64,000 bases of DNA from a virus. Positions within the stretch are counted from its first letter, which is position 1. The number at the start of each line of letters is the position of its first letter. Below, piece after piece: positions 16,007 through 59,006 of the stretch. The notes below the pieces were generated by a model. It made no database searches and was not told the origin of the DNA. It saw nothing but the letters and a program-made list of their open reading frames with translations. The DNA lies in IMG/VR virus record IMGVR_UViG_3300021594_000641, positions 32,001 to 96,000 of that record; one strand, 5' to 3'. The position numbers and the translations under genes are program-made.

Positions 16007-17503
16007 TCACAGCAAATTTCCCCGCACAACGCGTGCGACTATTGTGTCTGACACATCGGTTGTGGTTATTTCTGTTTCAAAGGTTGTTCCCATACCTGTG
16101 AACGACCCTATCTCTTCAGTATCCTCGTAATCAGCTTGCAGCACTTCTTCTTCAATGTCTTGCAAGTCTATTAGAAGAAACATGGTTGTGTGAGGCGGTA
16201 TCAGGTTTCTTAAATAAGTAATATTTTCTATTCCAGCGAAACCTGGCCTAACCGATCCTGCCTTTATTTTTACCAAAAAAGCGCCGTTTCTTAAAACGTT
16301 TTCGGCCAAAAATTTCAAAGGGTTGATTACTGAAGGTACGTTAGTGGGTCCTGGCTCTCCGTATTTCACAGGCCTATTATCGAATGCGTCTGCAAGGGTC
16401 ATGGCCATAGCCAAGCCCCTCTTGTGCGTGTCATCCCAGAAAGCTTCCACATCAAAAGGATGCCCGCCAAGATAAAAGCTCATCTTGGCTTTTCCATTAC
16501 TGTCGTACTCAAAATCTACCGGCACTTCTTCGTTATTAAATCCTATGTCGCCTATGTATTGTATTCCCATGTATCTTTTTGAAAGGTTTAGACCCTTCAA
16601 AGATTCTGGCACCTCTCCTCTGTTAAACTCATGCACTAAAATTCCATCAGTCATTTCCTGGTCTACTCTTAACGAGTCACCGATAGAAACAACGGCTTGA
16701 GAATTTTTGTTAAACTTGTAAACATTTTTATTTGTAATGACAAGTAAGTTATTTCTGTCGTAAGTTATGTCTTCTACGGTTTCATTTCCTTTTGCCAGAG
16801 GTATGCCGGTAGTGGCGGCTATCCCGTCCAAAGTTTTTCCCATGGACGTGCCTAAAACCATTGAATCGTATACGTTGTTCAACAAATCTTTGTATGGCTG
16901 ACTAGACTTAGCCCACAGTCCTATAACGTAGCCAAAATGGCTGTACAGGTATTCTTTGTCTATTCTTGGCAATTGAAGCCATAAAACTATCTCTTCGTCT
17001 CCTTCTGTGGTTTGATGCGCAAAACTGTCATTATTGAAAGGGTTCTCAGCGAAGAATAAACGATGATTGGCTGAGTCTATATAAAAATCAAGGTTTCTAA
17101 ATAGAACAGTTGAAGGGCTGGATATTCTATTTGTGATTATGGGGCAATCTACTATTTCTTCAGGCAGAGGATAAAAAAAAGAAAATCCTGAAGACCTTCT
17201 TCCGTAACTGGCAGCGGTTGTTCCGTAATAGCTTTCTTCGCCATAATTATTAGCCAGGCCGGATATTACTGACTTTTTCATAGTCAGCTCTAACCAGTAT
17301 TCTTTTCTAAATACTGGAATGTCCAATCTGCTTCTGCAATCTATGGCTTCTTGAAGCCTTTCAAAAGTTTGCTTTGTTAGATTGCATCGTCCTTTTAATG
17401 CTTCGGCCAGGTAGTCGTTGCCGGTATAAACTTCCTCCCAGAATCCTCCAAGGAGTCGGAGGATCTGACCCTTGTCATCCAGCTGGGTAGGAAAATTTAT
17501 CAT
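16007..17503 (-). CDS. Baseplate wedge protein (gp7/P2 gpI-like position)
   Basis: 498 aa, downstream of baseplate J; ends with the YLRNLIPPHTTMFL motif typical of wedge subunits. Confidence 0.55.
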   Translation of the reverse strand: MINFPTQLDDKGQILRLLGGFWEEVYTGNDYLAEALKGRCNLTKQTFERLQEAIDCRSRLDIPVFRKEYWLELTMKKSVISGLANNYGEESYYGTTAASYGRRSSGFSFFYPLPEEIVDCPIITNRISSPSTVLFRNLDFYIDSANHRLFFAENPFNNDSFAHQTTEGDEEIVLWLQLPRIDKEYLYSHFGYVIGLWAKSSQPYKDLLNNVYDSMVLGTSMGKTLDGIAATTGIPLAKGNETVEDITYDRNNLLVITNKNVYKFNKNSQAVVSIGDSLRVDQEMTDGILVHEFNRGEVPESLKGLNLSKRYMGIQYIGDIGFNNEEVPVDFEYDSNGKAKMSFYLGGHPFDVEAFWDDTHKRGLAMAMTLADAFDNRPVKYGEPGPTNVPSVINPLKFLAENVLRNGAFLVKIKAGSVRPGFAGIENITYLRNLIPPHTTMFLLIDLQDIEEEVLQADYEDTEEIGSFTGMGTTFETEITTTDVSDTIVARVVRGNLL

Positions 17504-18591
17504 TATGCATGTTTACCTGGCTTAGCGTTAATATCCATGGCCAGCTCTACTATAACCCTCGAGCCTTCACCAAAGAGTTGCCTAAATTTAAGCTTGCTGG
17601 CGCTTACAAAGTCTTTTTCTTCTATGACTACTTGAGTGCAGTTTTTCTTTTTTACTAAAGCTACTTTAGGCTCTTTTAAAACCAGCCTCTTAGGGTTTAA
17701 AAGACCCCAGCCATAGTCATTGTCAAATCCGTTTGTTCCGGCATCTGTAGCGCTGGCTTTGACTGCTTCTATGAAATCTCTTGAAGACTTCAAAGAGCGA
17801 GACTTTTTCTTCCGGTCATACTCTAAAGCCAAAGCGGCTACGCCTGCAACAAAAGGAGTAGCCATAGAAGTACCAGAAAGTTTGGCGTAGTTCTTAGGAG
17901 GGTATGCTGACAAGATGTCTACCCCAGGGGCCGCTACGTCTACTTGCGGACCTCTGCTTGAGAACTTAGCTATTCTGTTGTTAGAGTCTACAGCGGCTAC
18001 GGATAGAACCGTCTCATACCTTGCCGGGTATCCAACAGTTTCAGGGTCAGGGCCTTCGTTACCAGCAGCTGCGATTAGGATAACTCCTTTACTAGCCGCG
18101 TATTTCAAAGCTGCTTCAATGTCAGGGCAAGAAGACGGAGAGCCAAAACTCATAGAAATTATGTCAGCCTTTTGAGACACGGCCCACTTGATACCAGCGA
18201 CTATATTTTTGGTAGAGCCTCCTCCTGAGTCAGACAAAACTTTTCCAACTATAAGGCAGGCATCAGGAGCCACTCCTACTATTCCTACCCCATTCTTCTT
18301 AGCCGCGATTACTCCACAGCAGTGTGTGCCGTGTCCGTTTGAATCTCCAGGGCCTACAGGACTTTTTGTAAAATCTTTATGGGCGCATATCTGTTCTTTT
18401 AAATCTGGATGCAGCATGGCGCATCCGGTGTCCAGAACGGCAACCTTTATACCTTTGCCTGTGGCGTGCTGCCACAATTCAGGTATGCCAAAAGCCGTTA
18501 AACTCCAGTCCATAGTTTCTGAGCACGTCGATACGAAATGCTCAACCGAAAAGGATGGAATTTTAAAATCTGGAACACCGGGCCTAGCCAT
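17503..18591 (-). CDS. Subtilisin-like serine protease (peptidase S8)
   Basis: Complete catalytic set: VAVLDTG (Asp), GHGTHC (His), AAAGNEG (oxyanion Asn), SGTSMATP (Ser). No signal peptide. Confidence 0.95.
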   Translation of the reverse strand: MARPGVPDFKIPSFSVEHFVSTCSETMDWSLTAFGIPELWQHATGKGIKVAVLDTGCAMLHPDLKEQICAHKDFTKSPVGPGDSNGHGTHCCGVIAAKKNGVGIVGVAPDACLIVGKVLSDSGGGSTKNIVAGIKWAVSQKADIISMSFGSPSSCPDIEAALKYAASKGVILIAAAGNEGPDPETVGYPARYETVLSVAAVDSNNRIAKFSSRGPQVDVAAPGVDILSAYPPKNYAKLSGTSMATPFVAGVAALALEYDRKKKSRSLKSSRDFIEAVKASATDAGTNGFDNDYGWGLLNPKRLVLKEPKVALVKKKNCTQVVIEEKDFVSASKLKFRQLFGEGSRVIVELAMDINAKPGKHA

Positions 18592-41413: not shown

Positions 41414-42346
41414 TCAAGCGAAGTCGGCGCGGGCCAGAGAGTTGGTGTTGCCGATAGCGCCACCAATTGTCTCGTAAGCAAAGAACTCAAGCATGTAAGC
41501 CTTACGCTCGATGTACATTGTGGTGTCTTCGAGGACGTAGGACTTGCCCATGAACTTGGGATCAGCAAACAAGTACATTGAGTCGCTGGGGACCAAGTCT
41601 TGCTTGATGGTGATGATCCAGTTGGCGTTCATGAAGTTCTGCTCAGACCAGCCGTTCTTGAAGACGTCCTGGCTGAAGTCACCACCCATTTCTTCACGAC
41701 CAAACTTCATGATCTCGCGGATCGTGAGGTTGTTCAGAAGAACTGTGCCGGTTTCTAGGCGGCTGATGGTGCGGGGCAGAATCTTGAAAGCCTCTTGGAG
41801 GTTATCACGAGTGATACCGCCGTAGAGGGTTTCCCACTGAACAACGCCGGAGTTGGTGTTGGTGGCGTCGGCGGAGCCGCCCAAGCCAGCATCAACAGAG
41901 GCCAAGAACTTGCGGTCTTCTTCAGCCAGCATGTCCTTGATGGAGTTGTCAGAAAGAACCTGACGGATGTCGATGTAGTACGTCCGTAGTTCGTCAACGT
42001 CCTTGGTGAACCGAGGGGTGACGATACGATCGAAGCTAACGCGATAGCGCTGGCCGCGAATGTACAGGTTCATTGGTAGGGTGGCGAAGGGGATGCTGAT
42101 CGCGGCGGGGGAATCCGGCTCGCGGTCAACAATCTTCACGGGCTTGTCGGTATCAACCTGACGATCGAGATCGTCATTGCTGATCTGGACGGGTGGAAGG
42201 ATTCTGCGGTAGAAGCCTTCTTCACGCATCCTGTACCGGGTGAAGTCATTAACAGCGTCAAGTGCGCGCTTTTCCATGCCTGGGGTTTCCAGGTAGGACA
42301 TGAAGGTCTCGTTGCGCAGCTTGACATCTTCGCTAACTGATGCCAT
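41414..42346 (-). CDS. Major capsid protein (probable HK97 fold)
   Basis: 310 aa, follows protease-scaffold-decoration genes; strong codon bias; EEGFYRRILPP...RIVTPRFTKDVDELRTY...AEEDRKFL...FFAYETIGGAIGN pattern. Confidence 0.85.
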   Translation of the reverse strand: MASVSEDVKLRNETFMSYLETPGMEKRALDAVNDFTRYRMREEGFYRRILPPVQISNDDLDRQVDTDKPVKIVDREPDSPAAISIPFATLPMNLYIRGQRYRVSFDRIVTPRFTKDVDELRTYYIDIRQVLSDNSIKDMLAEEDRKFLASVDAGLGGSADATNTNSGVVQWETLYGGITRDNLQEAFKILPRTISRLETGTVLLNNLTIREIMKFGREEMGGDFSQDVFKNGWSEQNFMNANWIITIKQDLVPSDSMYLFADPKFMGKSYVLEDTTMYIERKAYMLEFFAYETIGGAIGNTNSLARADFA

Positions 42347-44751: not shown

Positions 44752-44780
44752 AAGTCTGCAAGAGTAAATCTTGCAGATTT
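44752..44780 (-). promoter_or_regulatory. Inverted repeat without a strong U-tract between protease and scaffold genes
   Basis: AAATCTGCAAGA-TTTAC-TCTTGCAGACTT (9-bp perfect core stem). Confidence 0.45.
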
Positions 44781-46258
44781 CAAGATAGGTAATTGGAGCG
44801 TACGGCGTGCTCCTTATACCAACTGAAATTCGGTTCGCTCTTGAGCTCATTTAAGAAATATAGCTGGTAAGCAGCATAACGTCTAGCTAGTTGTTCGCTA
44901 TCGTCTGTAGCTGCTGTTTTAACCAGTTCAGAATTTCTAGCTCTAAAACTTGCTTGCTTAGTATTTCCAGACAAAACTTGCTTGAAAATACGCTTTTCAA
45001 ACAAATTAGGTCTTATCGACTTTGAAACTGCTACCTTGTGAGCCCATTGCTGAATCTTTTCGCTTGGGAAAGCCATAGACGGGTCACAAGTTCTTTCTTC
45101 CAAACACTGCTCAAAACTTGCAGAATCACTTATAAGTCTAGAAAAAACGCCTGGAAGCCTTGCTTCTACGTCTTTATAGGACGCAGACTTCAAAATTATG
45201 CTGTTTGAGTCTTTTCCTACCAGGTCTAGCCAGTCTTTTACGCTCAAAGCCACTTTTTCGCGGCTCAAAGCCCTCCAAATCTGCACTCCGGCCATTTTTC
45301 CCATAGGAACGTCGGTCAAAGCCGTTTTCTTATCGTCAAGAATGGTTGAGTCCTTCTGAGACACTCCAAACTTGCCGTTTTCTAGAGAACTTTCCATTTC
45401 TGCAAGTTCGTAGGCAAGTTTGAGCAAAGAAGCTGACCTTTCAGGCATATTTTCAAAACACAGCCTGAAAGGAGCTGTCACACCCATTTCTTCAGCTAAA
45501 AGAGCTCCTCCAGCCACTTGACTGGCGTTAGCCGCCTTCATGTGGCCAAAAACGTAAGCAATTCTGTCGGCGGGTCGATAAACGTCAGAAATATCAAACC
45601 AAGTAGGGTCAGGGTTGTCCACATGCAGTACATGACCATCAGCGGCCACTTTTGTCAGGTTGTTATAGCATCCGCCGTACTTACAGTTTCTTTCTGTGCA
45701 GTAAGTAGACCTGTTAGCGGCTTTGTTGCCACAACCGCTGCAAACGTCAAAAGGAACCCTACAAGCCATGGAAACGCCCCAGTCATTTGAACCGGAGGCT
45801 ATTTTTTGCATTTCCTTGTCAGCAACCAGGCCTTTGTTGCGGTCAGCTGCTTCTTTAGTGCCGTTAAGCGCTACAAGCAGCTCAATACGCTTCATCGCCT
45901 CGTTGAACGCCGACATTTTGATAATGCCATAACTTTTCGCTTCATCTTTATTTTGGTGGTTGCGGTACCACCTAGCGTGTTTGACGAACGTAGGATGGTA
46001 TTTGCGGCAAGTCGCAGACTTGAAACCGTCTCCGTTACGGTTTGGACCGTATGACTCCGTAGCTCCAATAGCAATAAGGTGAACGAGCTGCTCACCTGGC
46101 GCGACGTTGACATCGCGAAGTTTATCAGCGAATTCATGCCCAGCTCTTTTTATAAATGACTTAAGATCGTCGCCGCGAAGCCCGCGACTTGATTGCTTTA
46201 CCATCTCTACAGCTGGTACGCCAAAGTCTTGGGAGTCTGGAGAAGTTATCTTTATCAT
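44780..46258 (-). CDS. Prohead maturation protease (His/Ser, HK97/herpes-assemblin-like) with Cys-rich insert
   Basis: NRNGDGF, YRNHQNKD (His), WGVSMAC (Ser), CSGCGN..C, FDISDVYRPAD; canonical position upstream of scaffold and MCP. Confidence 0.8.
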   Translation of the reverse strand: MIKITSPDSQDFGVPAVEMVKQSSRGLRGDDLKSFIKRAGHEFADKLRDVNVAPGEQLVHLIAIGATESYGPNRNGDGFKSATCRKYHPTFVKHARWYRNHQNKDEAKSYGIIKMSAFNEAMKRIELLVALNGTKEAADRNKGLVADKEMQKIASGSNDWGVSMACRVPFDVCSGCGNKAANRSTYCTERNCKYGGCYNNLTKVAADGHVLHVDNPDPTWFDISDVYRPADRIAYVFGHMKAANASQVAGGALLAEEMGVTAPFRLCFENMPERSASLLKLAYELAEMESSLENGKFGVSQKDSTILDDKKTALTDVPMGKMAGVQIWRALSREKVALSVKDWLDLVGKDSNSIILKSASYKDVEARLPGVFSRLISDSASFEQCLEERTCDPSMAFPSEKIQQWAHKVAVSKSIRPNLFEKRIFKQVLSGNTKQASFRARNSELVKTAATDDSEQLARRYAAYQLYFLNELKSEPNFSWYKEHAVRSNYLS

Positions 46259-54015: not shown

Positions 54016-55506
54016 TTAAGAATGATGGCTTCCAACTTGTTTTAGGATTTCTCTGAACTTGTTGTTCAGGTCTTCCTTTTCTCTAGCTATTCCTTCTATT
54101 ATCTCATCGCCAGTTCTATATTTTTTAGCTCCAAGCATTTTAGAGAAGAAGCTGGGCTCTTCAGCCTGACTTATATACTTTTGTATAATAACGTCTTTCA
54201 GCTCTTCAGGTAAACCTACGTGAGAATCGAACCTTAGGCCTCTTCCTTTAGCCTGTTGAGTTCTCGACTCATGGAAGTGAGGGTCAAGTATTTGTATAAG
54301 ACTGGTGCCCTTGGTGCTTAAACCTTCTGCTCCAGCGGGACCAATCAATAAAGCTCTTAATTTACCAGCGTTGTAAGCATCTACGGCTTTCTTACGCTCT
54401 CTTTCCTTTACTCCTCCATGGAAAAACCCGTAAGGAATTTTCTCTTTGGCTAGAGCCGCAGCGTATGGGTCTAATCCTGCGCCTATATAGTTAGAGTATA
54501 TCAAAGCTTTTTTACGCTTATCTTCTTGTAGAACTTGTTTTAAGTTTTTTAAAGCTTCAGTCAACTTACCTGACTGCTGGAAAGACTTTATAAGATTCTT
54601 GTCTGCTCTAAACGGCGAAGTAGACAGACCTACTTGTCTAAGACCTGTCATGAAGCTGTTCAGCCTCTTTGACTCTTCTGCAGATAGGGGAAACTCTCTG
54701 TCTAGTTTCCATAAAAACTTAAGAGGAATCTTTTCCCTGATAGCGCTTTGAATTCTTTGCTGTTCTTGAGTTAGAGGAACTTTTATTAGCTGCTCGTTTA
54801 TGCTGACGCCTTCTGGAAGCTTTCCTGGCTGGTAATCAACTTTATTTTCAAGAAGCTTACGAAGTATGTGTTCGTTTCTTATTGTTTCTCTTTCGCCTGG
54901 CATGATGCCTCTAAGTTTGGCGAAGAAACCTGGGTCTACTCTTTTCTTTCGTATAAAAGCTTTGTTGAAATCTTCAGGATCTATCTTGAAACCGGTAAGC
55001 ATTGATAGCGGAGTAGCCAAATCAGATGGTTCGTTGACTATTGGAGACCCAGACAAGAGCATCAGCTGATTGGCTCTATTAGCGGCTCTGGCTATAGCCT
55101 CAGTTGCGGCTGAAGTTGGGCTTCTGAGCCTATGCGCTTCATCTACGATTATTGTTTTAGGAGGCTGTTTGAACTTTTTGCCTAAAGCCGCGCCTGTGTA
55201 AGAGAGTATTTCAGGCTCGCTACCGGTGGTGAATCTGTCTACTTCTTTCTGGAAGTTTTCTCTTAGGCTTGCTGGGGCTATTACGCCGTAATCGTCACCG
55301 AATTTCTTTTTGGCGGCTTCGGCTGCAAGTATTGAAGCTAAAGTTTTGCCGGTTCCTAAGCCGTGGTAGACCAACATCTTAGGACTTTTTGTAACTAATT
55401 TCTTAGCGACTCTAAGCTGATGAGCCTGAGGAATTACCTCAGGCTTCATCTCCGCGCTCTTCCCAATCTCTGAGAAGAGCGCTATTAGCTTGGAGTATTG
55501 ATTCAT
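54016..55506 (-). CDS. SF2 SNF2-family helicase/ATPase (NPH-I/D11-like)
   Basis: Motif I YHGLGTGKT, II IIVDEAH, III LSGSP, V GAEGLS, VI QQAKGRGLRFDSH; 18-aa leader ending GKSA. Confidence 0.9.
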   Translation of the reverse strand: MNQYSKLIALFSEIGKSAEMKPEVIPQAHQLRVAKKLVTKSPKMLVYHGLGTGKTLASILAAEAAKKKFGDDYGVIAPASLRENFQKEVDRFTTGSEPEILSYTGAALGKKFKQPPKTIIVDEAHRLRSPTSAATEAIARAANRANQLMLLSGSPIVNEPSDLATPLSMLTGFKIDPEDFNKAFIRKKRVDPGFFAKLRGIMPGERETIRNEHILRKLLENKVDYQPGKLPEGVSINEQLIKVPLTQEQQRIQSAIREKIPLKFLWKLDREFPLSAEESKRLNSFMTGLRQVGLSTSPFRADKNLIKSFQQSGKLTEALKNLKQVLQEDKRKKALIYSNYIGAGLDPYAAALAKEKIPYGFFHGGVKERERKKAVDAYNAGKLRALLIGPAGAEGLSTKGTSLIQILDPHFHESRTQQAKGRGLRFDSHVGLPEELKDVIIQKYISQAEEPSFFSKMLGAKKYRTGDEIIEGIAREKEDLNNKFREILKQVGSHHS

Positions 55507-55512
55507 CTGTGA

Positions 55513-56445
55513 TTACTTCTTCTTTGGAAGATTGTCCATCACATCGATCTTGGAATAAGGCTTCTTTGAGCTCTTATCCTTGTAGTTCATACCCTCTGAC
55601 CCGCAAGAAGAAGCGGCTTGCTTGAGGGTGTTGAGCATCCTTATTACTCTGTACTTCCTGTCTAGGCTTTCTTTTACGCTAGCCGTAGTTGTTTTAAACT
55701 CAGACTTTCCACTTTCAGTGTTTTTAGTCTGAGCCTTTGAAGTATCTTCTTTAGGCTTGGCTGCTTCAGGCTTGGGAGCTTCAGCCGCAGGTGGTTTAGC
55801 TGGAGAAGAAACATCTCCTCCGGCTATTGCGTTACCTACGTTTGTACCCCTACGCTTTACTTCTTTAAAATTAGCTTTTGCGTTATCTAAAGCTTTAGAC
55901 CCAAGTTCTTGAATTTTGCTCAATCCCTGAGTTGCTAATTCTTTTCCTTTTCCGTAGCTGGAATCTGCAAACTGCCCTGGAACTCTTGTCGCATAGCCTA
56001 GGTAACCGCCTAAGCCTTTTGCTCCTCGGGCAGCAGCAGCGTGCCTGCTTTTCTGTTGTTCTAGAAGACCTGGTAGCTCAGATATTTGTTCAGGAGAAAG
56101 CCCACCTTGTTCAAGAGCCTCTTGATATTTTTTTAGATCTGCTTCTGTAGGCTCTTGCCCCATCATCGACAATTCTGTGGCTCCGCCTAAAAGGCCCGCG
56201 CCCGCAGTGCCGCCAAGTAGCCCATACAGAAGAGCATTACGTAAACGGTTCTTCTTTGATAGCGCTAGACCGCCTAGACCGCCCAAAGCCAGTCCAGGAA
56301 CGCCGCCAGCAATTGCTGAAGCGACAGTCGGGTCTAGGTTAGAGGTACTTATCTCTTTTGGATCTACTATCGTGGATAGATCTCCTTCGGCAGCCAATTT
56401 CTTTAGTGCGGCGGCTTTCAGGCTAAGCTCTGTCAAATTGCTCAT
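55513..56445 (-). CDS. KxA-leader glycine-zipper protein (paralogous hairpin to 46268..47749)
   Basis: LKAAALKKLAA, then GGVPGLALGGLGGLAL-SKKNR-NALLYGLLGGTAGAGLLGG. Confidence 0.55.
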   Translation of the reverse strand: MSNLTELSLKAAALKKLAAEGDLSTIVDPKEISTSNLDPTVASAIAGGVPGLALGGLGGLALSKKNRLRNALLYGLLGGTAGAGLLGGATELSMMGQEPTEADLKKYQEALEQGGLSPEQISELPGLLEQQKSRHAAAARGAKGLGGYLGYATRVPGQFADSSYGKGKELATQGLSKIQELGSKALDNAKANFKEVKRRGTNVGNAIAGGDVSSPAKPPAAEAPKPEAAKPKEDTSKAQTKNTESGKSEFKTTTASVKESLDRKYRVIRMLNTLKQAASSCGSEGMNYKDKSSKKPYSKIDVMDNLPKKK

Positions 56446-56495: not shown

Positions 56496-59006
56496 TTATG
56501 CTAGCTCTTCGTCAGCATCTTCCTTTTTCTTACGCCTATCTTCTTTTAACTTAGTTAAATAGTCATATAGCTTATATATACCGTAAGCACCGCCGCCAAG
56601 AGCGGCTGTTGCGCCCAAGCCTTGAACCCATGGAGCAACCTTGTGAGAAGTGGCAGTAATATTGCCAGGCTGCTCAAGAGCCTTGACTATACCCATGTAC
56701 AAAGGCCCGATTGTCGCAGGGTTAACCCCCTGGTGAGGCTGAGCAGCTGACATGGCGTGAGCAGCGGCAGCCGTTGTCGGATCTTTTGTCAGAGCTTCGT
56801 AAATAAGCTTGGATTGTTCCCTGTCTGGAGTTGGATGGGCTTTCTGTACATCCTGCACTATCTGATGCATCCTGCTCATGGTGTCCACGACGCCCTGACG
56901 CCCAGATCCGTATCCTAGAAGCCTTTGCATAGCTGCGTTTTGCTTTGAGGCGGCTTCTGGAGTAGCGGCTGACTGCGCAAAAGCCGATTCTATGTCTTGT
57001 CTTTCTGCATCCGAAAGACTGGCTTTGCGCTTGCTGATCAAATCAAACAGTTTTTCAGCTGTGGCTTTGCTCTGAAGCCTGTTGTACTTGGTATCTTTTG
57101 AGAAGAATCGCATGGGGTTGGCGTGAGCCAAGTATCCGCCGAGTGTAGCTTCTTCTTCTGGCTTGTCTGTGCTCTTTAGCTCTGCCTGCGGAGCTATGAT
57201 GCCGGTAAGTTCTTCAATCCAGTCTTTCTTGTACTTATCCTCAGGCGAAATATTCTTATCAAAGTCAGGCTGGGGATAAGTAGGCTTTCTATTCATGCCA
57301 GCTCGAGATTTAATCTCTACTGTGGCTATTCTTTTGATCAAGTCTTCAAGAGGGTTAACTCCTTCTACAGTTTGCTGCATAAAAGCTGAAGACGGGTCTT
57401 TAGCGTAATAGTTGTAGTGAGAATAATGCCCGCCTTCTGGCTGAGGAACTCCTTCTCTTGTCTCTAGCTTGGGCTGTCCGTGAGTTTGAACTCCCTGAGC
57501 GCGTAGAGCTTCAAGAATATTCTTTCTCTGAGTGTTCAGCTCTGCGCTGCCTGGCTTGTTTACATCTTTGAACAAAGGTTCAAGAAAAGCGGAGGCAGCT
57601 TCTGGAGTTATGCCCCTAGCCTTAGCTAGTTCTTGTACAGCAAAGTCTTTCTTTGTTTCTATATCCCGGAATCTTTCGTCAAAATCTCTTCTACCTAGAT
57701 AGTTGGTGCCAGGAATTCTCTCCCATTCACCTTTTGAGTTCTTTCTGTACTCTGATCCCTCTGTTCCTGGCCTTGGAGGAGGTCCTCCAACATTCATAAG
57801 CGGCCCAACCCAGTTTTCATTACGCGGGCTACGCATCCAGTTCATTATGTCTAAGGCTTTTGTGTTGCCATAAGCTATTGTCGGCAATAGGTTATTGGCT
57901 TCTCTGATATATGCAAGCTGGGCTGTAAGCTTGTCTGGTGCGCTGAACAAATCTTTTACAGCTTCTGATCCGGCTCCAAACCCTTTTGTTCTACCTGGGT
58001 TTAAATCCCTAAGTTTGAAATTAGGCATTACCTGTATGGCGTCTTGCTTAGCATCATGCTCTCTTTTCATTCTCTCTATGACAGCTTTCTCTTCTGGCGT
58101 AGCTCCGCCTCTTAGAGAGCTTGAAAGAATGCCAAACCATCCTGGTCTTTCATCTTTTGGTAGGTTTCCGCGCAACTCGGCTCTAGCAGAAGCCAAGTCT
58201 ATCTGATTCTGAACGTCCTCAAGGGTCAGATTCCCTAGTTGCCTGAGTTTCGTACCGCCGTATATTCCAGCGGCACCAGCACCACCTAGCAGGGCAGATC
58301 CCAGCAAACCGGCAGTCGGAAATGAGGCTGTCGAGGGTCTTTTCTTTTTTTTAGCGGTCCTGCTGGGTGATTGCCCAATGTCGAGGTACTCTTTACCTTC
58401 TGCATCTTCAAATTGAAGATTTTCTAGCTCTTCACGATTTGCCTGATTAGCCAACAAATCATTTGCTTCTGCATTAAGTTGCCAGTTTTCAAGCTCATTA
58501 AGTCTATTTTTATTTAAATCAGGCAGCTCCGCCTTTTTCTCTGACTCTCTAGTTACTTTCTTCCAGTTCTTTGCTGTTGGGTATCCTTTCTCTCCAGGCT
58601 TTGCTGGAGCTTCTCCACGCTCTTTCTTGGCGTGAATGTTTGCCCAGAGGCCTGGTTTTCCGCCTGCTTCTTTCTGATTTTCTGTCTCAGCTCGCTTACT
58701 AAGAGACTGTAGTATCTCGGCTAGTTTTTCATGAGCGCTGCCACACTTCCATTTACGAAGAGACTTGTTTATTCGGCTATCTGGGTCGTTTGCCGTAGCT
58801 TTTGAAGTTAGCTTGGACTTCATGCCTTTCATTCTGGCGCAGAAGCTATCTTTTCTTGGACCTCCTTCTGGCTGAGGCCTTTTTATGTCATGGCCTTGGG
58901 CTTTTAGGCTCTTACGGCCTTTCTCGTTCAGACCGCCTTCTGGGTTCTTGCCTTCAGAACGCTGCCAAGCTGGTGATGCGGACTTTTCTGTATCTTCAAG
59001 GCTCAT
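56496..59006 (-). CDS. Modular putative polyprotein: two small basic modules plus a large Gly-zipper-flanked domain, separated by KxA sites
   Basis: KSA|SPAWQR..GGLNEKGR..SFCARM..RKWKC; KEA|GGKPGLWANIHAKK..; KKA|; coupled to the RNAP gene by an ATGA overlap. Confidence 0.7.
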   Translation of the reverse strand: MSLEDTEKSASPAWQRSEGKNPEGGLNEKGRKSLKAQGHDIKRPQPEGGPRKDSFCARMKGMKSKLTSKATANDPDSRINKSLRKWKCGSAHEKLAEILQSLSKRAETENQKEAGGKPGLWANIHAKKERGEAPAKPGEKGYPTAKNWKKVTRESEKKAELPDLNKNRLNELENWQLNAEANDLLANQANREELENLQFEDAEGKEYLDIGQSPSRTAKKKKRPSTASFPTAGLLGSALLGGAGAAGIYGGTKLRQLGNLTLEDVQNQIDLASARAELRGNLPKDERPGWFGILSSSLRGGATPEEKAVIERMKREHDAKQDAIQVMPNFKLRDLNPGRTKGFGAGSEAVKDLFSAPDKLTAQLAYIREANNLLPTIAYGNTKALDIMNWMRSPRNENWVGPLMNVGGPPPRPGTEGSEYRKNSKGEWERIPGTNYLGRRDFDERFRDIETKKDFAVQELAKARGITPEAASAFLEPLFKDVNKPGSAELNTQRKNILEALRAQGVQTHGQPKLETREGVPQPEGGHYSHYNYYAKDPSSAFMQQTVEGVNPLEDLIKRIATVEIKSRAGMNRKPTYPQPDFDKNISPEDKYKKDWIEELTGIIAPQAELKSTDKPEEEATLGGYLAHANPMRFFSKDTKYNRLQSKATAEKLFDLISKRKASLSDAERQDIESAFAQSAATPEAASKQNAAMQRLLGYGSGRQGVVDTMSRMHQIVQDVQKAHPTPDREQSKLIYEALTKDPTTAAAAHAMSAAQPHQGVNPATIGPLYMGIVKALEQPGNITATSHKVAPWVQGLGATAALGGGAYGIYKLYDYLTKLKEDRRKKKEDADEELA

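What the first reader, a model, noticed from the sequence alone, without database searches (positions are those of the whole stretch)
56496..59006. Apparent phage polyprotein: small basic peptide modules placed between KxA sites
Seen: MSLEDTEKSA | SPAWQRSEGKNPEGGLNEKGR..SFCARMKGMK..DPDSRINKSLRKWKC (aa 11-88, nt 58743..58976) ..EKLA|..SKRA|..QKEA | GGKPGLWANIHAKKERGEAPAKPGEKGYPTAKNWKK..EKKA (aa 115-159, nt 58530..58664) | large domain. Module boundaries coincide with KxA sites. From memory, not verified: both modules resemble small basic domains found as stand-alone ORFs or inserts in aquatic phages (the first as DUF6321), including T4-like cyanophages. Inference: these are mobile cargo peptides (possibly DNA-condensing or host-acting) that are placed behind whichever site the resident prohead protease cuts and are released inside the capsid.
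Basis: partly seen in the sequence, partly recalled or inferred. Interest (0 to 1): 0.85.

Follow-up and report, generated by a model that had tools for sequence, protein, structure and literature searches.

The report
Phage head cargo peptides, protease-matched junctions
A large freshwater phage encodes a protein whose front end carries two small, strongly basic modules; the same modules occur in thousands of aquatic phages, each time flanked by the cutting motif of that phage's own head protease, so they are probably cut free inside the capsid, though no cutting has been measured.

Summary
ORF 56496..59006 (-) is 836 aa. It reads: 10-aa leader, KSA, DUF6321 (aa 11-88; Pfam 59.5 bits), linker with three KxA, a second basic module (aa 115-159), KKA, then an orphan 75-kDa part.

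Both modules have thousands of independent homologues, stand-alone or fused.
- In this phage's lineage (7 of 7 checked proteins sit in the same slot beside the RNA polymerase and SNF2 helicase genes), DUF6321 is preceded by K-x-A in 41 distinct contexts and by x-x-E in 1.
- In the T4-like cyanophage pool the figures are 0 and 60. Many of those proteins start with a near-copy of T4's capsid-targeting sequence (MKTYNDFITE against T4 MKTYQEFIAE).
- Most stand-alone forms start MAK directly.

KxA is also the most jointly conserved X-x-Y motif in the lineage's head proteins and ends the capsid-protein and helicase leaders. A protease with the T4 gp21/herpesvirus fold lies at 44780..46258. In the nearest cultured relative, Salmonella phage Arash, the polymerase and helicase were detected in virion preparations.

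Cleavage, virion location and peptide function remain inferred. The scan had already noted T4-type bead polyproteins on other DNA; the match across two protease systems is the new point.

The parts
56496..59006 (-). Whole ORF, 836 aa (P0001): head-cargo precursor. Its ATG overlaps the TGA of the upstream RNAP beta-prime C-half gene (ATGA).
58977..59006 (-). aa 1-10, acidic leader MSLEDTEKSA ending in K8-S-A10.
   Evidence: Stand-alone homologues start at the residue that follows.
58743..58976 (-). aa 11-88, module 1 = DUF6321. With its tail to A96 it is 9.5 kDa, pI 10.3. Predicted small helical domain.
58665..58742 (-). aa 89-114, linker GSAHEKLA/EILQSLSKRA/ETENQKEA with three KxA. It is homologous to the GSAxEKLAxLLKxA linker of relatives.
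58530..58664 (-). aa 115-159, module 2 (GLWANIHAKK... type), 4.9 kDa, pI 10.1, ending in K157-K-A159.
58356..58529 (-). aa 160-217, acidic hypervariable linker (pI 4.1). It is replaced or shortened in the 95% relative, starting right after A159.
58251..58355 (-). aa 218-252, Lys patch (KKKKR) followed by a Gly/Ala-rich hydrophobic segment.
   Evidence: Read from the sequence. Similar segments occur in positional homologues.
56634..58250 (-). aa 253-791, large orphan domain, KxA-depleted, ending in K789-V-A791.
56499..56633 (-). aa 792-836, second Gly/Ala-rich hydrophobic segment and a charged tail.
   Evidence: Read from the sequence.
44780..46258 (-). 492-aa candidate prohead protease. The N-terminal domain (aa 51-243) has the T4 gp21/herpesvirus assemblin fold. 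The helical C-terminal half is rich in KxA (16 against 4.1 expected).
41414..42346 (-). Major capsid protein, 310 aa. Its single KxA (K26-R-A28, nt 42263-42271) is invariant in 19 dereplicated orthologues and in phage Arash. It ends a variable leader.
54016..55506 (-). SNF2 helicase with a variable N-terminal leader ending in K16-S-A18. KxA is kept at this place in 5 of 6 relatives.
   Evidence: The Arash homologue was detected in virions.
59003..60907 (-). RNA polymerase beta-prime C-terminal half, the upstream neighbour that defines the syntenic slot.
55513..56445 (-). 310-aa downstream neighbour with a KxA leader (SLKAA.., KKLA) and Gly/Ala-rich hydrophobic segments.

Best explanation
P0001 is a precursor that is loaded into the prohead of a roughly 190-kb freshwater myovirus-like phage. 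This phage probably also packages its own multisubunit RNA polymerase and an SNF2 helicase.

The lineage's maturation protease (44780..46258, gp21/assemblin fold) is proposed to cut after K-x-A. That would remove a 10-residue leader and free three products: a 9.5-kDa DUF6321 peptide, a 4.9-kDa second basic peptide, and a 75-kDa C-terminal protein with two Gly/Ala-rich hydrophobic segments, which is a likely ejection or envelope-contacting protein.

The two basic peptides would stay with the packed DNA and enter the cell with it, like the internal proteins of phage T4. The same two modules are portable across aquatic phages, and the junction in front of them is re-coded to the resident protease:
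- K-x-A in this lineage;
- hydrophobic-x-E, often with a T4-type capsid-targeting leader, in T4-like cyanophages;
- a bare MAK start in most stand-alone forms.

Shown here: the module identities, the junction statistics, the conservation of KxA, the protease fold and the synteny.

Inferred: cleavage, virion residence, and DNA binding or co-injection as the function of the peptides.
For: Modules:
- DUF6321 hit.
- The modules occur stand-alone or fused in cyanophages of T4 and T7 type.
- There are more than 7,800 fused clusters and 735 representatives for module 2.

Slot:
- P0003, P0046, P0027, P0111, P0022, P0045 and P0009 all lie beside the beta-prime C-half and SNF2 helicase genes of relatives.
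- Their lengths run from 178 to 1,292 aa and the module order is shuffled.

Junctions:
- T4-like isolates: S-CREM1 gp179 MKTYNDFITE|VAAW, S-CAM9 VIDE|, S-8S56 KLPE|, ACG-2014f DLPE| and DLME|.
- Of 98 near-length homologues, 66 have [LIVM]xE within 3 residues before the module and 1 has Kx[AGS].
- The T4 capsid-targeting sequence MKTYQEFIAE and its single cleavage are described in PMC8442874.
- Module 2 shows the same dichotomy.

KxA as a lineage motif:
- It ranks 1 of 77 X-x-Y motifs for joint conservation over 10 head proteins (0.39 against a mean of 0.19).
- The capsid-protein K26-x-A28 is invariant behind a variable leader and is kept in phage Arash.
- It ends the helicase leader and many neighbours' leaders.
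- A third module elsewhere in this genome is preceded by AKEA.

Protease:
- tblastn links it to annotated prohead proteases.
- The best structural matches are T4 gp21 (Z 8.7, 130 aligned, rmsd 3.1) and then 21 herpesvirus protease entries.

Virion context:
- In Arash the RNAP beta and beta-prime subunits, the helicase and the adjacent proteins were detected by LC-MS in purified particles (PMC10585845).

Other:
- The peptides have pI 10.1-10.3.
- DUF6321 also heads proteins carrying phage lysozyme, ART-PolyVal and PBECR5 domains. PMC5512222 predicts that this class of protein is packaged and injected.
Against: - No proteomic or biochemical evidence exists for cleavage at KxA in any member of the lineage.
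- The overall KxA count in P0001 is not above the compositional expectation.
- The C-terminal edge of DUF6321 is 8 residues before the next KxA.
- Junction motifs could travel with the modules by descent within each gene pool. Most metagenomic proteins were not individually assigned to a phage type; 7 were checked in one pool and 5 isolates in the other.
- The Arash particle proteome lists 116 proteins, including ribonucleotide reductases, so some detections may be carry-over. Its authors say so themselves. Arash has no DUF6321.
- DUF6321 matches no solved fold, so DNA binding is a guess from charge and context.
Confidence: 0.55

Rival explanations
1. The protein works uncleaved. The KxA-containing stretches are conserved helical spacers, and the two basic modules form an N-terminal nucleic-acid-binding end of a full-length ejection or membrane protein.
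For: The KxA count is not enriched in P0001. The linkers are Lys/Ala/Glu-rich and would give KxA often. The C-terminal edge of the module is offset from the site. Some packaged multidomain proteins stay unprocessed, for example the N4 virion RNA polymerase (PMC5512222).
Against: This does not explain why the same modules carry hydrophobic-x-E and T4-type targeting leaders in T4-like phages. It does not explain why K and A are the invariant positions at junctions with 41 different upstream contexts. It does not explain why KxA is depleted in the large domain.
Confidence: 0.2
2. DUF6321 and module 2 are not cargo. They are the loading device: a portable domain that binds DNA, scaffold or portal and drags whatever is fused to it into the head.
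For: DUF6321 sits at the extreme N-terminus (MAK start) of large proteins carrying lysozyme, ADP-ribosyltransferase and PBECR5 nuclease domains. The stand-alone 81-aa forms, which make up most of the IMG/VR hits, would need some way of their own to enter the head. The T7-type cyanopodoviruses show no annotated prohead protease in the regions examined; their small ORFs carry longer basic N-termini rather than a bare MAK start.
Against: In T4-like phages DUF6321 is itself placed behind a capsid-targeting leader, which marks it as the thing being loaded. In this lineage it can lie at the N-terminus, in the middle or at the C-terminus.
Confidence: 0.12
3. The gene has no virion role. It encodes intracellular accessory factors for the phage RNA polymerase or helicase, beside whose genes it lies.
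For: It is flanked by, and translationally coupled (ATGA overlap) to, the beta-prime C-half gene, and it lies near the SNF2 helicase gene.
Against: In the nearest cultured relative this polymerase/helicase block was itself detected in particles. In other phages the modules sit in late structural regions: between the capsid and tail-tube genes, or in the g16-g17 region with targeting leaders.
Confidence: 0.08
4. The coincidence of KxA with the module borders is chance or a composition effect.
For: Within aa 1-160 the count is 5 against 2.7 expected, P = 0.11.
Against: Uniform-placement P is about 5e-4. The pattern recurs in relatives with different module order. Fisher P is about 7e-28 for the lineage split. 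KxA ranks first of 77 motifs for joint conservation.
Confidence: 0.03

Closest known systems
[quoted passage not shown]
   Same: They are small, highly basic proteins loaded into the prohead core. The gp21 protease cuts them once behind a roughly 10-residue N-terminal leader, and they are kept with the DNA and injected. DUF6321 homologues in T4-like cyanophages carry a near-identical leader (MKTY[KN][DE]FITE). The window also encodes a gp21-fold protease.
   Different: The leader and cut motif here are K-x-A, not hydrophobic-x-E. Two modules and a 75-kDa protein are strung on one chain. T4 internal proteins are hypervariable, whereas DUF6321 is extremely conserved (38 of 78 columns invariant) across phages that infect different hosts. 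Nothing has been shown experimentally here.
Ejection and inner-body proteins of giant phages (phiKZ, SPN3US), processed by their prohead protease (PMC5694885 and PMC7411985 appear in the result list but were not read; the motif is from my own knowledge)
   Same: These are large phages that package a virion RNA polymerase and many head-internal proteins cut by a gp21-type protease at a short shared motif.
   Different: The motif in those phages is S/A/G-x-E (my own knowledge). They have no DUF6321 and a different polymerase arrangement.
Polyvalent proteins of phages and conjugative elements (Iyer et al. 2017, PMC5512222)
   Same: These are multi-module proteins encoded among virion genes and predicted to be packaged, sometimes processed, and injected. 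DUF6321 heads proteins that carry ART-PolyVal, PBECR5 and phage lysozyme domains.
   Different: P0001 has no recognised enzymatic effector domain. The paper has no occurrence of the terms 'cyanophage' or 'DUF4214', and no paper in the library holds the term DUF6321. Processing here is by the head protease at linker motifs, not by a built-in peptidase domain.
Herpesvirus assemblin cleavage sites (V/L/I-x-A|S; from my own knowledge)
   Same: The protease fold is the same. The proposed specificity also has Ala at P1 and often Ser at P1' (EKSA|S, EKKA|S, KVA|S).
   Different: P3 is Lys rather than a hydrophobic residue. The specificity is inferred from sequence only.
Adenovirus core protein precursors pVII and pX/Mu, cut by the viral protease inside the capsid (analogy from my own knowledge)
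   Same: Small basic DNA-associated peptides are released from precursors by the maturation protease inside the particle.
   Different: The virus, protease and proteins are unrelated. This is an analogy of mechanism only.

Membership tests
Pfam DUF6321 (PF19846) | Match to the family HMM above the gathering score | tested here: met
   aa 19-86, full-length model 1-72, 59.5 bits against a cut-off of 28.5, E 5e-16. The Atlas neighbours are all DUF6321.
T4-type internal proteins | N-terminal capsid-targeting sequence of the MKTYQEFIAE type | tested here: not met
   The window leader is MSLEDTEKSA. The T4-type leader is present on DUF6321 homologues of T4-like cyanophages, not here.
T4-type internal proteins | A prohead protease of the gp21 family encoded by the same phage | tested here: met
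   For 44780..46258, the best structural match is T4 gp21 (Z 8.7, 130 of 165 aligned, rmsd 3.1), followed by herpesvirus proteases. tblastn links it to annotated prohead proteases. Foldseek alone was not significant.
T4-type internal proteins | Small, highly basic mature product | tested here: met
   9.5 kDa at pI 10.3 and 4.9 kDa at pI 10.1, if cut at the KxA sites.
T4-type internal proteins | Cleavage behind the leader, and presence in the mature head | not testable with these tools
   No proteome exists for this lineage. The Arash supplement holds no peptide lists.
Polyvalent proteins (Iyer et al. 2017) | Two or more effector or enzymatic domains in one polypeptide | tested here: not met
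   Pfam finds only DUF6321 in P0001. The large domain has no relatives beyond one 95% copy. Other DUF6321 proteins do qualify.
Polyvalent proteins (Iyer et al. 2017) | Encoded among virion or packaging genes | tested here: met
   The gene lies in one co-directional block with the protease and capsid genes and with the polymerase and helicase genes, whose Arash homologues were detected in particles.
KxA-processed head proteins of this lineage (proposed here, not an established family) | K-x-A at the end of the N-terminal leader or at module junctions, conserved in relatives | tested here: met
   Five sites at or near the module edges. The same junction motif appears in positional homologues. 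Conservation across the lineage is shown.

The most novel reading that the evidence does not exclude
DUF6321, the GLWANIHAK-type module and a third CW-GY-PG module form a horizontally exchanged set of injected 'core' peptides, found across aquatic phage lineages and highly conserved. Their junctions are rewritten to fit each lineage's head protease. If that is right, both the specificity of an uncharacterised prohead protease (here K-x-A, with Ala at P1 as in herpesviruses) and the injected cargo of uncultured phages can be read directly from sequence.
Probability: 0.45. Interest if true: 0.8.

Novelty: new variant of a known kind. Interest (0 to 1): 0.68.

Why it matters

Placing it among protease-released head cargo gives it a testable role. 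It also supplies a natural experiment, because one module sits behind two different protease motifs, and that comparison lets protease specificity and packaged cargo be inferred from genomes alone.

The work also defines a populous lineage of uncultured phages of roughly 150-235 kb (at least 113 IMG/VR contigs). These phages have a gp21/assemblin-fold protease that appears to cut after Ala, as herpesvirus proteases do, and they probably carry their own RNA polymerase and helicase into the cell.

Tried and rejected
- **Large domain (aa 165-836).** Only the protein itself and one 95% copy were found among 5.8 billion proteins. There was no relative in IMG/VR and no Pfam or PHROG hit.
- **Module 2.** No Pfam family, even at E of 1 or below.
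- **DUF6321 fold.** The model is confident (pLDDT 86), but Foldseek found nothing at E of 0.001 or below, and an exhaustive structural search gave Z of 3.0 or below. No function can be taken from the fold.
- **Protease.** No Pfam hit and no PDB sequence-profile hit. Foldseek was not significant. Only the structural re-alignment and tblastn identified it.
- **Literature.** No paper holds 'DUF6321'. Only one paper holds both 'capsid targeting sequence' and 'cyanophage', and it is a T4 review.
- **Arash supplements.** They hold gene tables only, with no peptide lists, so termini following KxA could not be checked.
- **Nucleotide search.** A megablast of 14 kb against isolated phages found nothing.
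- **Raw KxA enrichment in P0001.** Rejected as an argument, because the count is below the compositional expectation.
- **P0111.** I first took this 1,292-aa protein on a 179-kb contig to be from a T4-like cyanophage. Its genomic context showed that it belongs to this lineage.
Full report
**What is there.** The window is part of a 189,675-bp phage genome. Nearly all its genes lie on the minus strand, and most have no PHROG or Pfam family. ORF 56496..59006 (-) encodes 836 residues. Its start codon overlaps the stop codon of the upstream gene (ATGA), which encodes the C-terminal half of an RNA polymerase beta-prime subunit (Pfam RNA_pol_Rpb1_5). Downstream come a 310-aa protein and an SNF2 helicase.

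The protein reads as follows:
- leader MSLEDTEKSA;
- DUF6321 (aa 11-88);
- a 26-residue linker with three KxA;
- a second basic module (aa 115-159) ending EKKA;
- an acidic stretch;
- a Lys patch with a Gly/Ala-rich hydrophobic segment;
- a large domain;
- a last KxA (K789-V-A791) in front of a second hydrophobic segment and a charged tail.

**Checking the observation.** DUF6321 is a clear Pfam hit (59.5 bits, cut-off 28.5). PHROG profiles show the same 80 residues either as whole small proteins or as the C-terminal end of larger families. The second module hits three further PHROGs. The raw number of KxA is unremarkable (6 against 8.8 expected), so count alone proves nothing. Their placement is unusual. 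All five N-terminal sites avoid the module cores (P about 5e-4), and the 676-residue remainder holds one where six are expected (P = 0.014). In a 95%-identical relative, residues 1-159 are virtually unchanged and the sequence is rearranged beginning exactly after A159. Stand-alone homologues begin MAK|SPAW and end at the Cys that matches C88. The front edge of DUF6321 is therefore exactly behind KSA, while its rear edge is 8 residues before the next KxA.

**The modules elsewhere.** tblastn finds DUF6321 in 493 isolated phage genomes, mostly cyanophages and also pelagiphages.
- In T7-type cyanopodoviruses the two modules are adjacent small genes, in the same order as here, within the structural gene region. 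In P-SCSP1u they lie between the capsid and tail-tube genes. In KBS-P-1A they lie between the connector/scaffold genes and psbA, upstream of the capsid gene.
- In T4-like cyanophages they lie in the variable region near the terminase genes, either free or at the end of proteins of up to 943 aa.
- The large protein collections hold more than 7,800 longer clusters and about 8,000 near-length clusters with DUF6321, and 735 representatives with module 2.
- Most IMG/VR hits are free 81-aa genes.
- Some DUF6321 proteins also carry phage lysozyme, cell-wall hydrolase, ART-PolyVal and PBECR5 domains. That is the make-up of the 'polyvalent proteins', which are predicted to be packaged and injected (PMC5512222).

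**A conserved slot in a populous lineage.** The proteins most similar to the window's DUF6321 were traced to their contigs. All seven that I checked lie beside the beta-prime C-half and the SNF2 helicase genes of relatives of this phage. Those relatives have a fused beta/beta-prime-N gene of about 1,483 aa nearby. The proteins in this slot range from 178 to 1,292 aa. They hold the same small modules in different orders, along with a Cys-rich mini-module, a CW-GY-PG module and Gly/Ala-rich hydrophobic segments. The capsid protein has at least 113 relatives in IMG/VR at 63-95% identity, on contigs of up to 235 kb.

**The junction test.**
- In the pool related to the window, the residues in front of DUF6321 are K-x-A in 76 proteins (41 distinct upstream contexts), K-x-G/S in 16 and x-x-E in one.
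- I searched again with the T4-like cyanophage version. The front flank is then hydrophobic-x-E in 77 proteins (60 contexts) and never K-x-A alone. Fisher P is about 7e-28.
- The isolates agree: S-CREM1 gp179 begins MKTYNDFITE|VAAWQRK, S-CAM9 has VIDE|KSAAW, S-8S56 has KLPE|DWQKK, and ACG-2014f has DLPE|GTSAW and DLME|GVSAW.
- The S-CREM1 leader, and the MKTYK[DE]FITE leaders of many metagenomic relatives, are near-copies of the T4 capsid-targeting sequence MKTYQEFIAE. T4 internal proteins are cut once behind that sequence and then stay in the head (PMC8442874; PMC3012670).
- Module 2 shows the same split (72 KxA contexts, 40 hydrophobic-x-E contexts), including leaders such as MKSFKEFRELSE|AKRGLY.

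**Is KxA a real processing motif in this lineage?** I aligned ten head-region protein families from up to 56 dereplicated relatives. KxA is both the commonest and the most jointly conserved of 77 X-x-Y motifs (0.39 against a mean of 0.19; 23% of sites are kept in at least 80% of relatives, against 7% overall).
- The capsid protein has one KxA, at residues 26-28. K and A are invariant and x varies. The leader before the site is variable and the sequence after it is highly conserved.
- The helicase has a variable leader ending in KxA in five of six relatives. Many neighbouring genes start with leaders of the type M...VKQA|.
- A third small module elsewhere in this genome is preceded by AKEA.

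**The protease.** The 492-aa protein at 44780..46258 has 16 KxA against 4.1 expected. By tblastn it is related to annotated prohead proteases of actinophages and to Bacillus phage G gp19. Its modelled N-terminal domain aligns best with T4 gp21 (Z 8.7), followed by 21 herpesvirus protease entries. Herpesvirus proteases cut after Ala, usually before Ser (my own knowledge). Many of the conserved sites here read K-x-A|S.

**Virion context.** The nearest cultured relatives are Salmonella phage Arash (capsid 32% identity, protease 36%) and three Vibrio phages. Arash keeps KxA at the aligned capsid position and is rich in KxA in its head proteins. Its particle proteome contains the RNA polymerase beta and beta-prime subunits, the adjacent helicase and the neighbouring proteins. 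The authors caution that abundant enzymes may be carried over (PMC10585845). No peptide lists were available, so termini could not be checked.

**What the peptides might do.** Cut at KxA, the products would be 9.5 kDa (pI 10.3) and 4.9 kDa (pI 10.1). DUF6321 is predicted to be a compact helical domain (pLDDT 86) with no match among solved folds. Half of its positions are invariant across phages. That argues for a universal partner such as DNA, and against a host-specific defence target. This step is inference only.

**Verdict.** It is best described as a K-x-A version of the T4 internal-protein principle, arranged as a polyprotein. The scan had already reported T4-type bead polyproteins and capsid-targeting leaders in cyanophages on other DNA. 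The new point here is that identical modules sit behind two different protease motifs, and that this defines a large uncultured lineage with an Ala-specific gp21/assemblin-fold protease. Cleavage and packaging still need an experiment.

Noticed in passing
window 44780-46258 (-): The candidate prohead protease carries a four-Cys insertion (C-x2-C ... C ... C, invariant in 19 relatives) inside the gp21-like domain. It also has a long helical C-terminal half full of conserved KxA, as if protease and scaffold or self-processing region were fused.
   Followed up: partly
L087:10001-11701, L176:10001-12271, L177:10001-10537 (positional homologues): A Cys-rich mini-module resembling metallothionein (for example MCSCCKKAPCQCPPDCGCGCK), itself bracketed by KxA, sits in front of module 2 in several relatives. 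It is absent from the window protein.
   Followed up: no
genome position 116431 (-), about 20 kb beyond the window end; also L087:11711-11917: A third small basic module (CW-x-GY-...-PG-KKPYS-...-SC) occurs elsewhere in this genome behind AKEA. In a relative it is a free 68-aa gene with its own KxA leader. In T4-like cyanophages the same module precedes DUF6321.
   Followed up: partly
window 54016-55506 (-): The SNF2 helicase has a short variable N-terminal leader ending in K-x-A that is kept in relatives. This suggests the helicase is itself loaded into the head and trimmed. Its Arash homologue is abundant in particle preparations.
   Followed up: partly
window 61142-61945 (-): A 267-aa protein with a KxA leader followed by about eight tandem GGAPPMDP(A/S)MMG-like repeats. 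The opposite strand carries long spurious ORFs because of the repeat.
   Followed up: no
window 56499-58526 (-), aa 161-836: KxA is depleted in the large domain (1 observed, 5.9 expected, P = 0.014), as would be expected if internal sites are selected against in a protein exposed to the protease.
   Followed up: partly
L173:2754-3062 and L174:2739-3047 (S-CAM9, S-8S56): The gene directly after the DUF6321 protein in these T4-like cyanophages also starts with a T4-type capsid-targeting-like leader (MKSFNQFLSE), so these regions look like clusters of head-cargo genes.
   Followed up: no
window 17503-18591 (-): A 362-aa protein in the tail region strongly matches the middle of phrog_3677 ('protease', E 6e-90). 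It is distinct from the head protease and was not examined.
   Followed up: no
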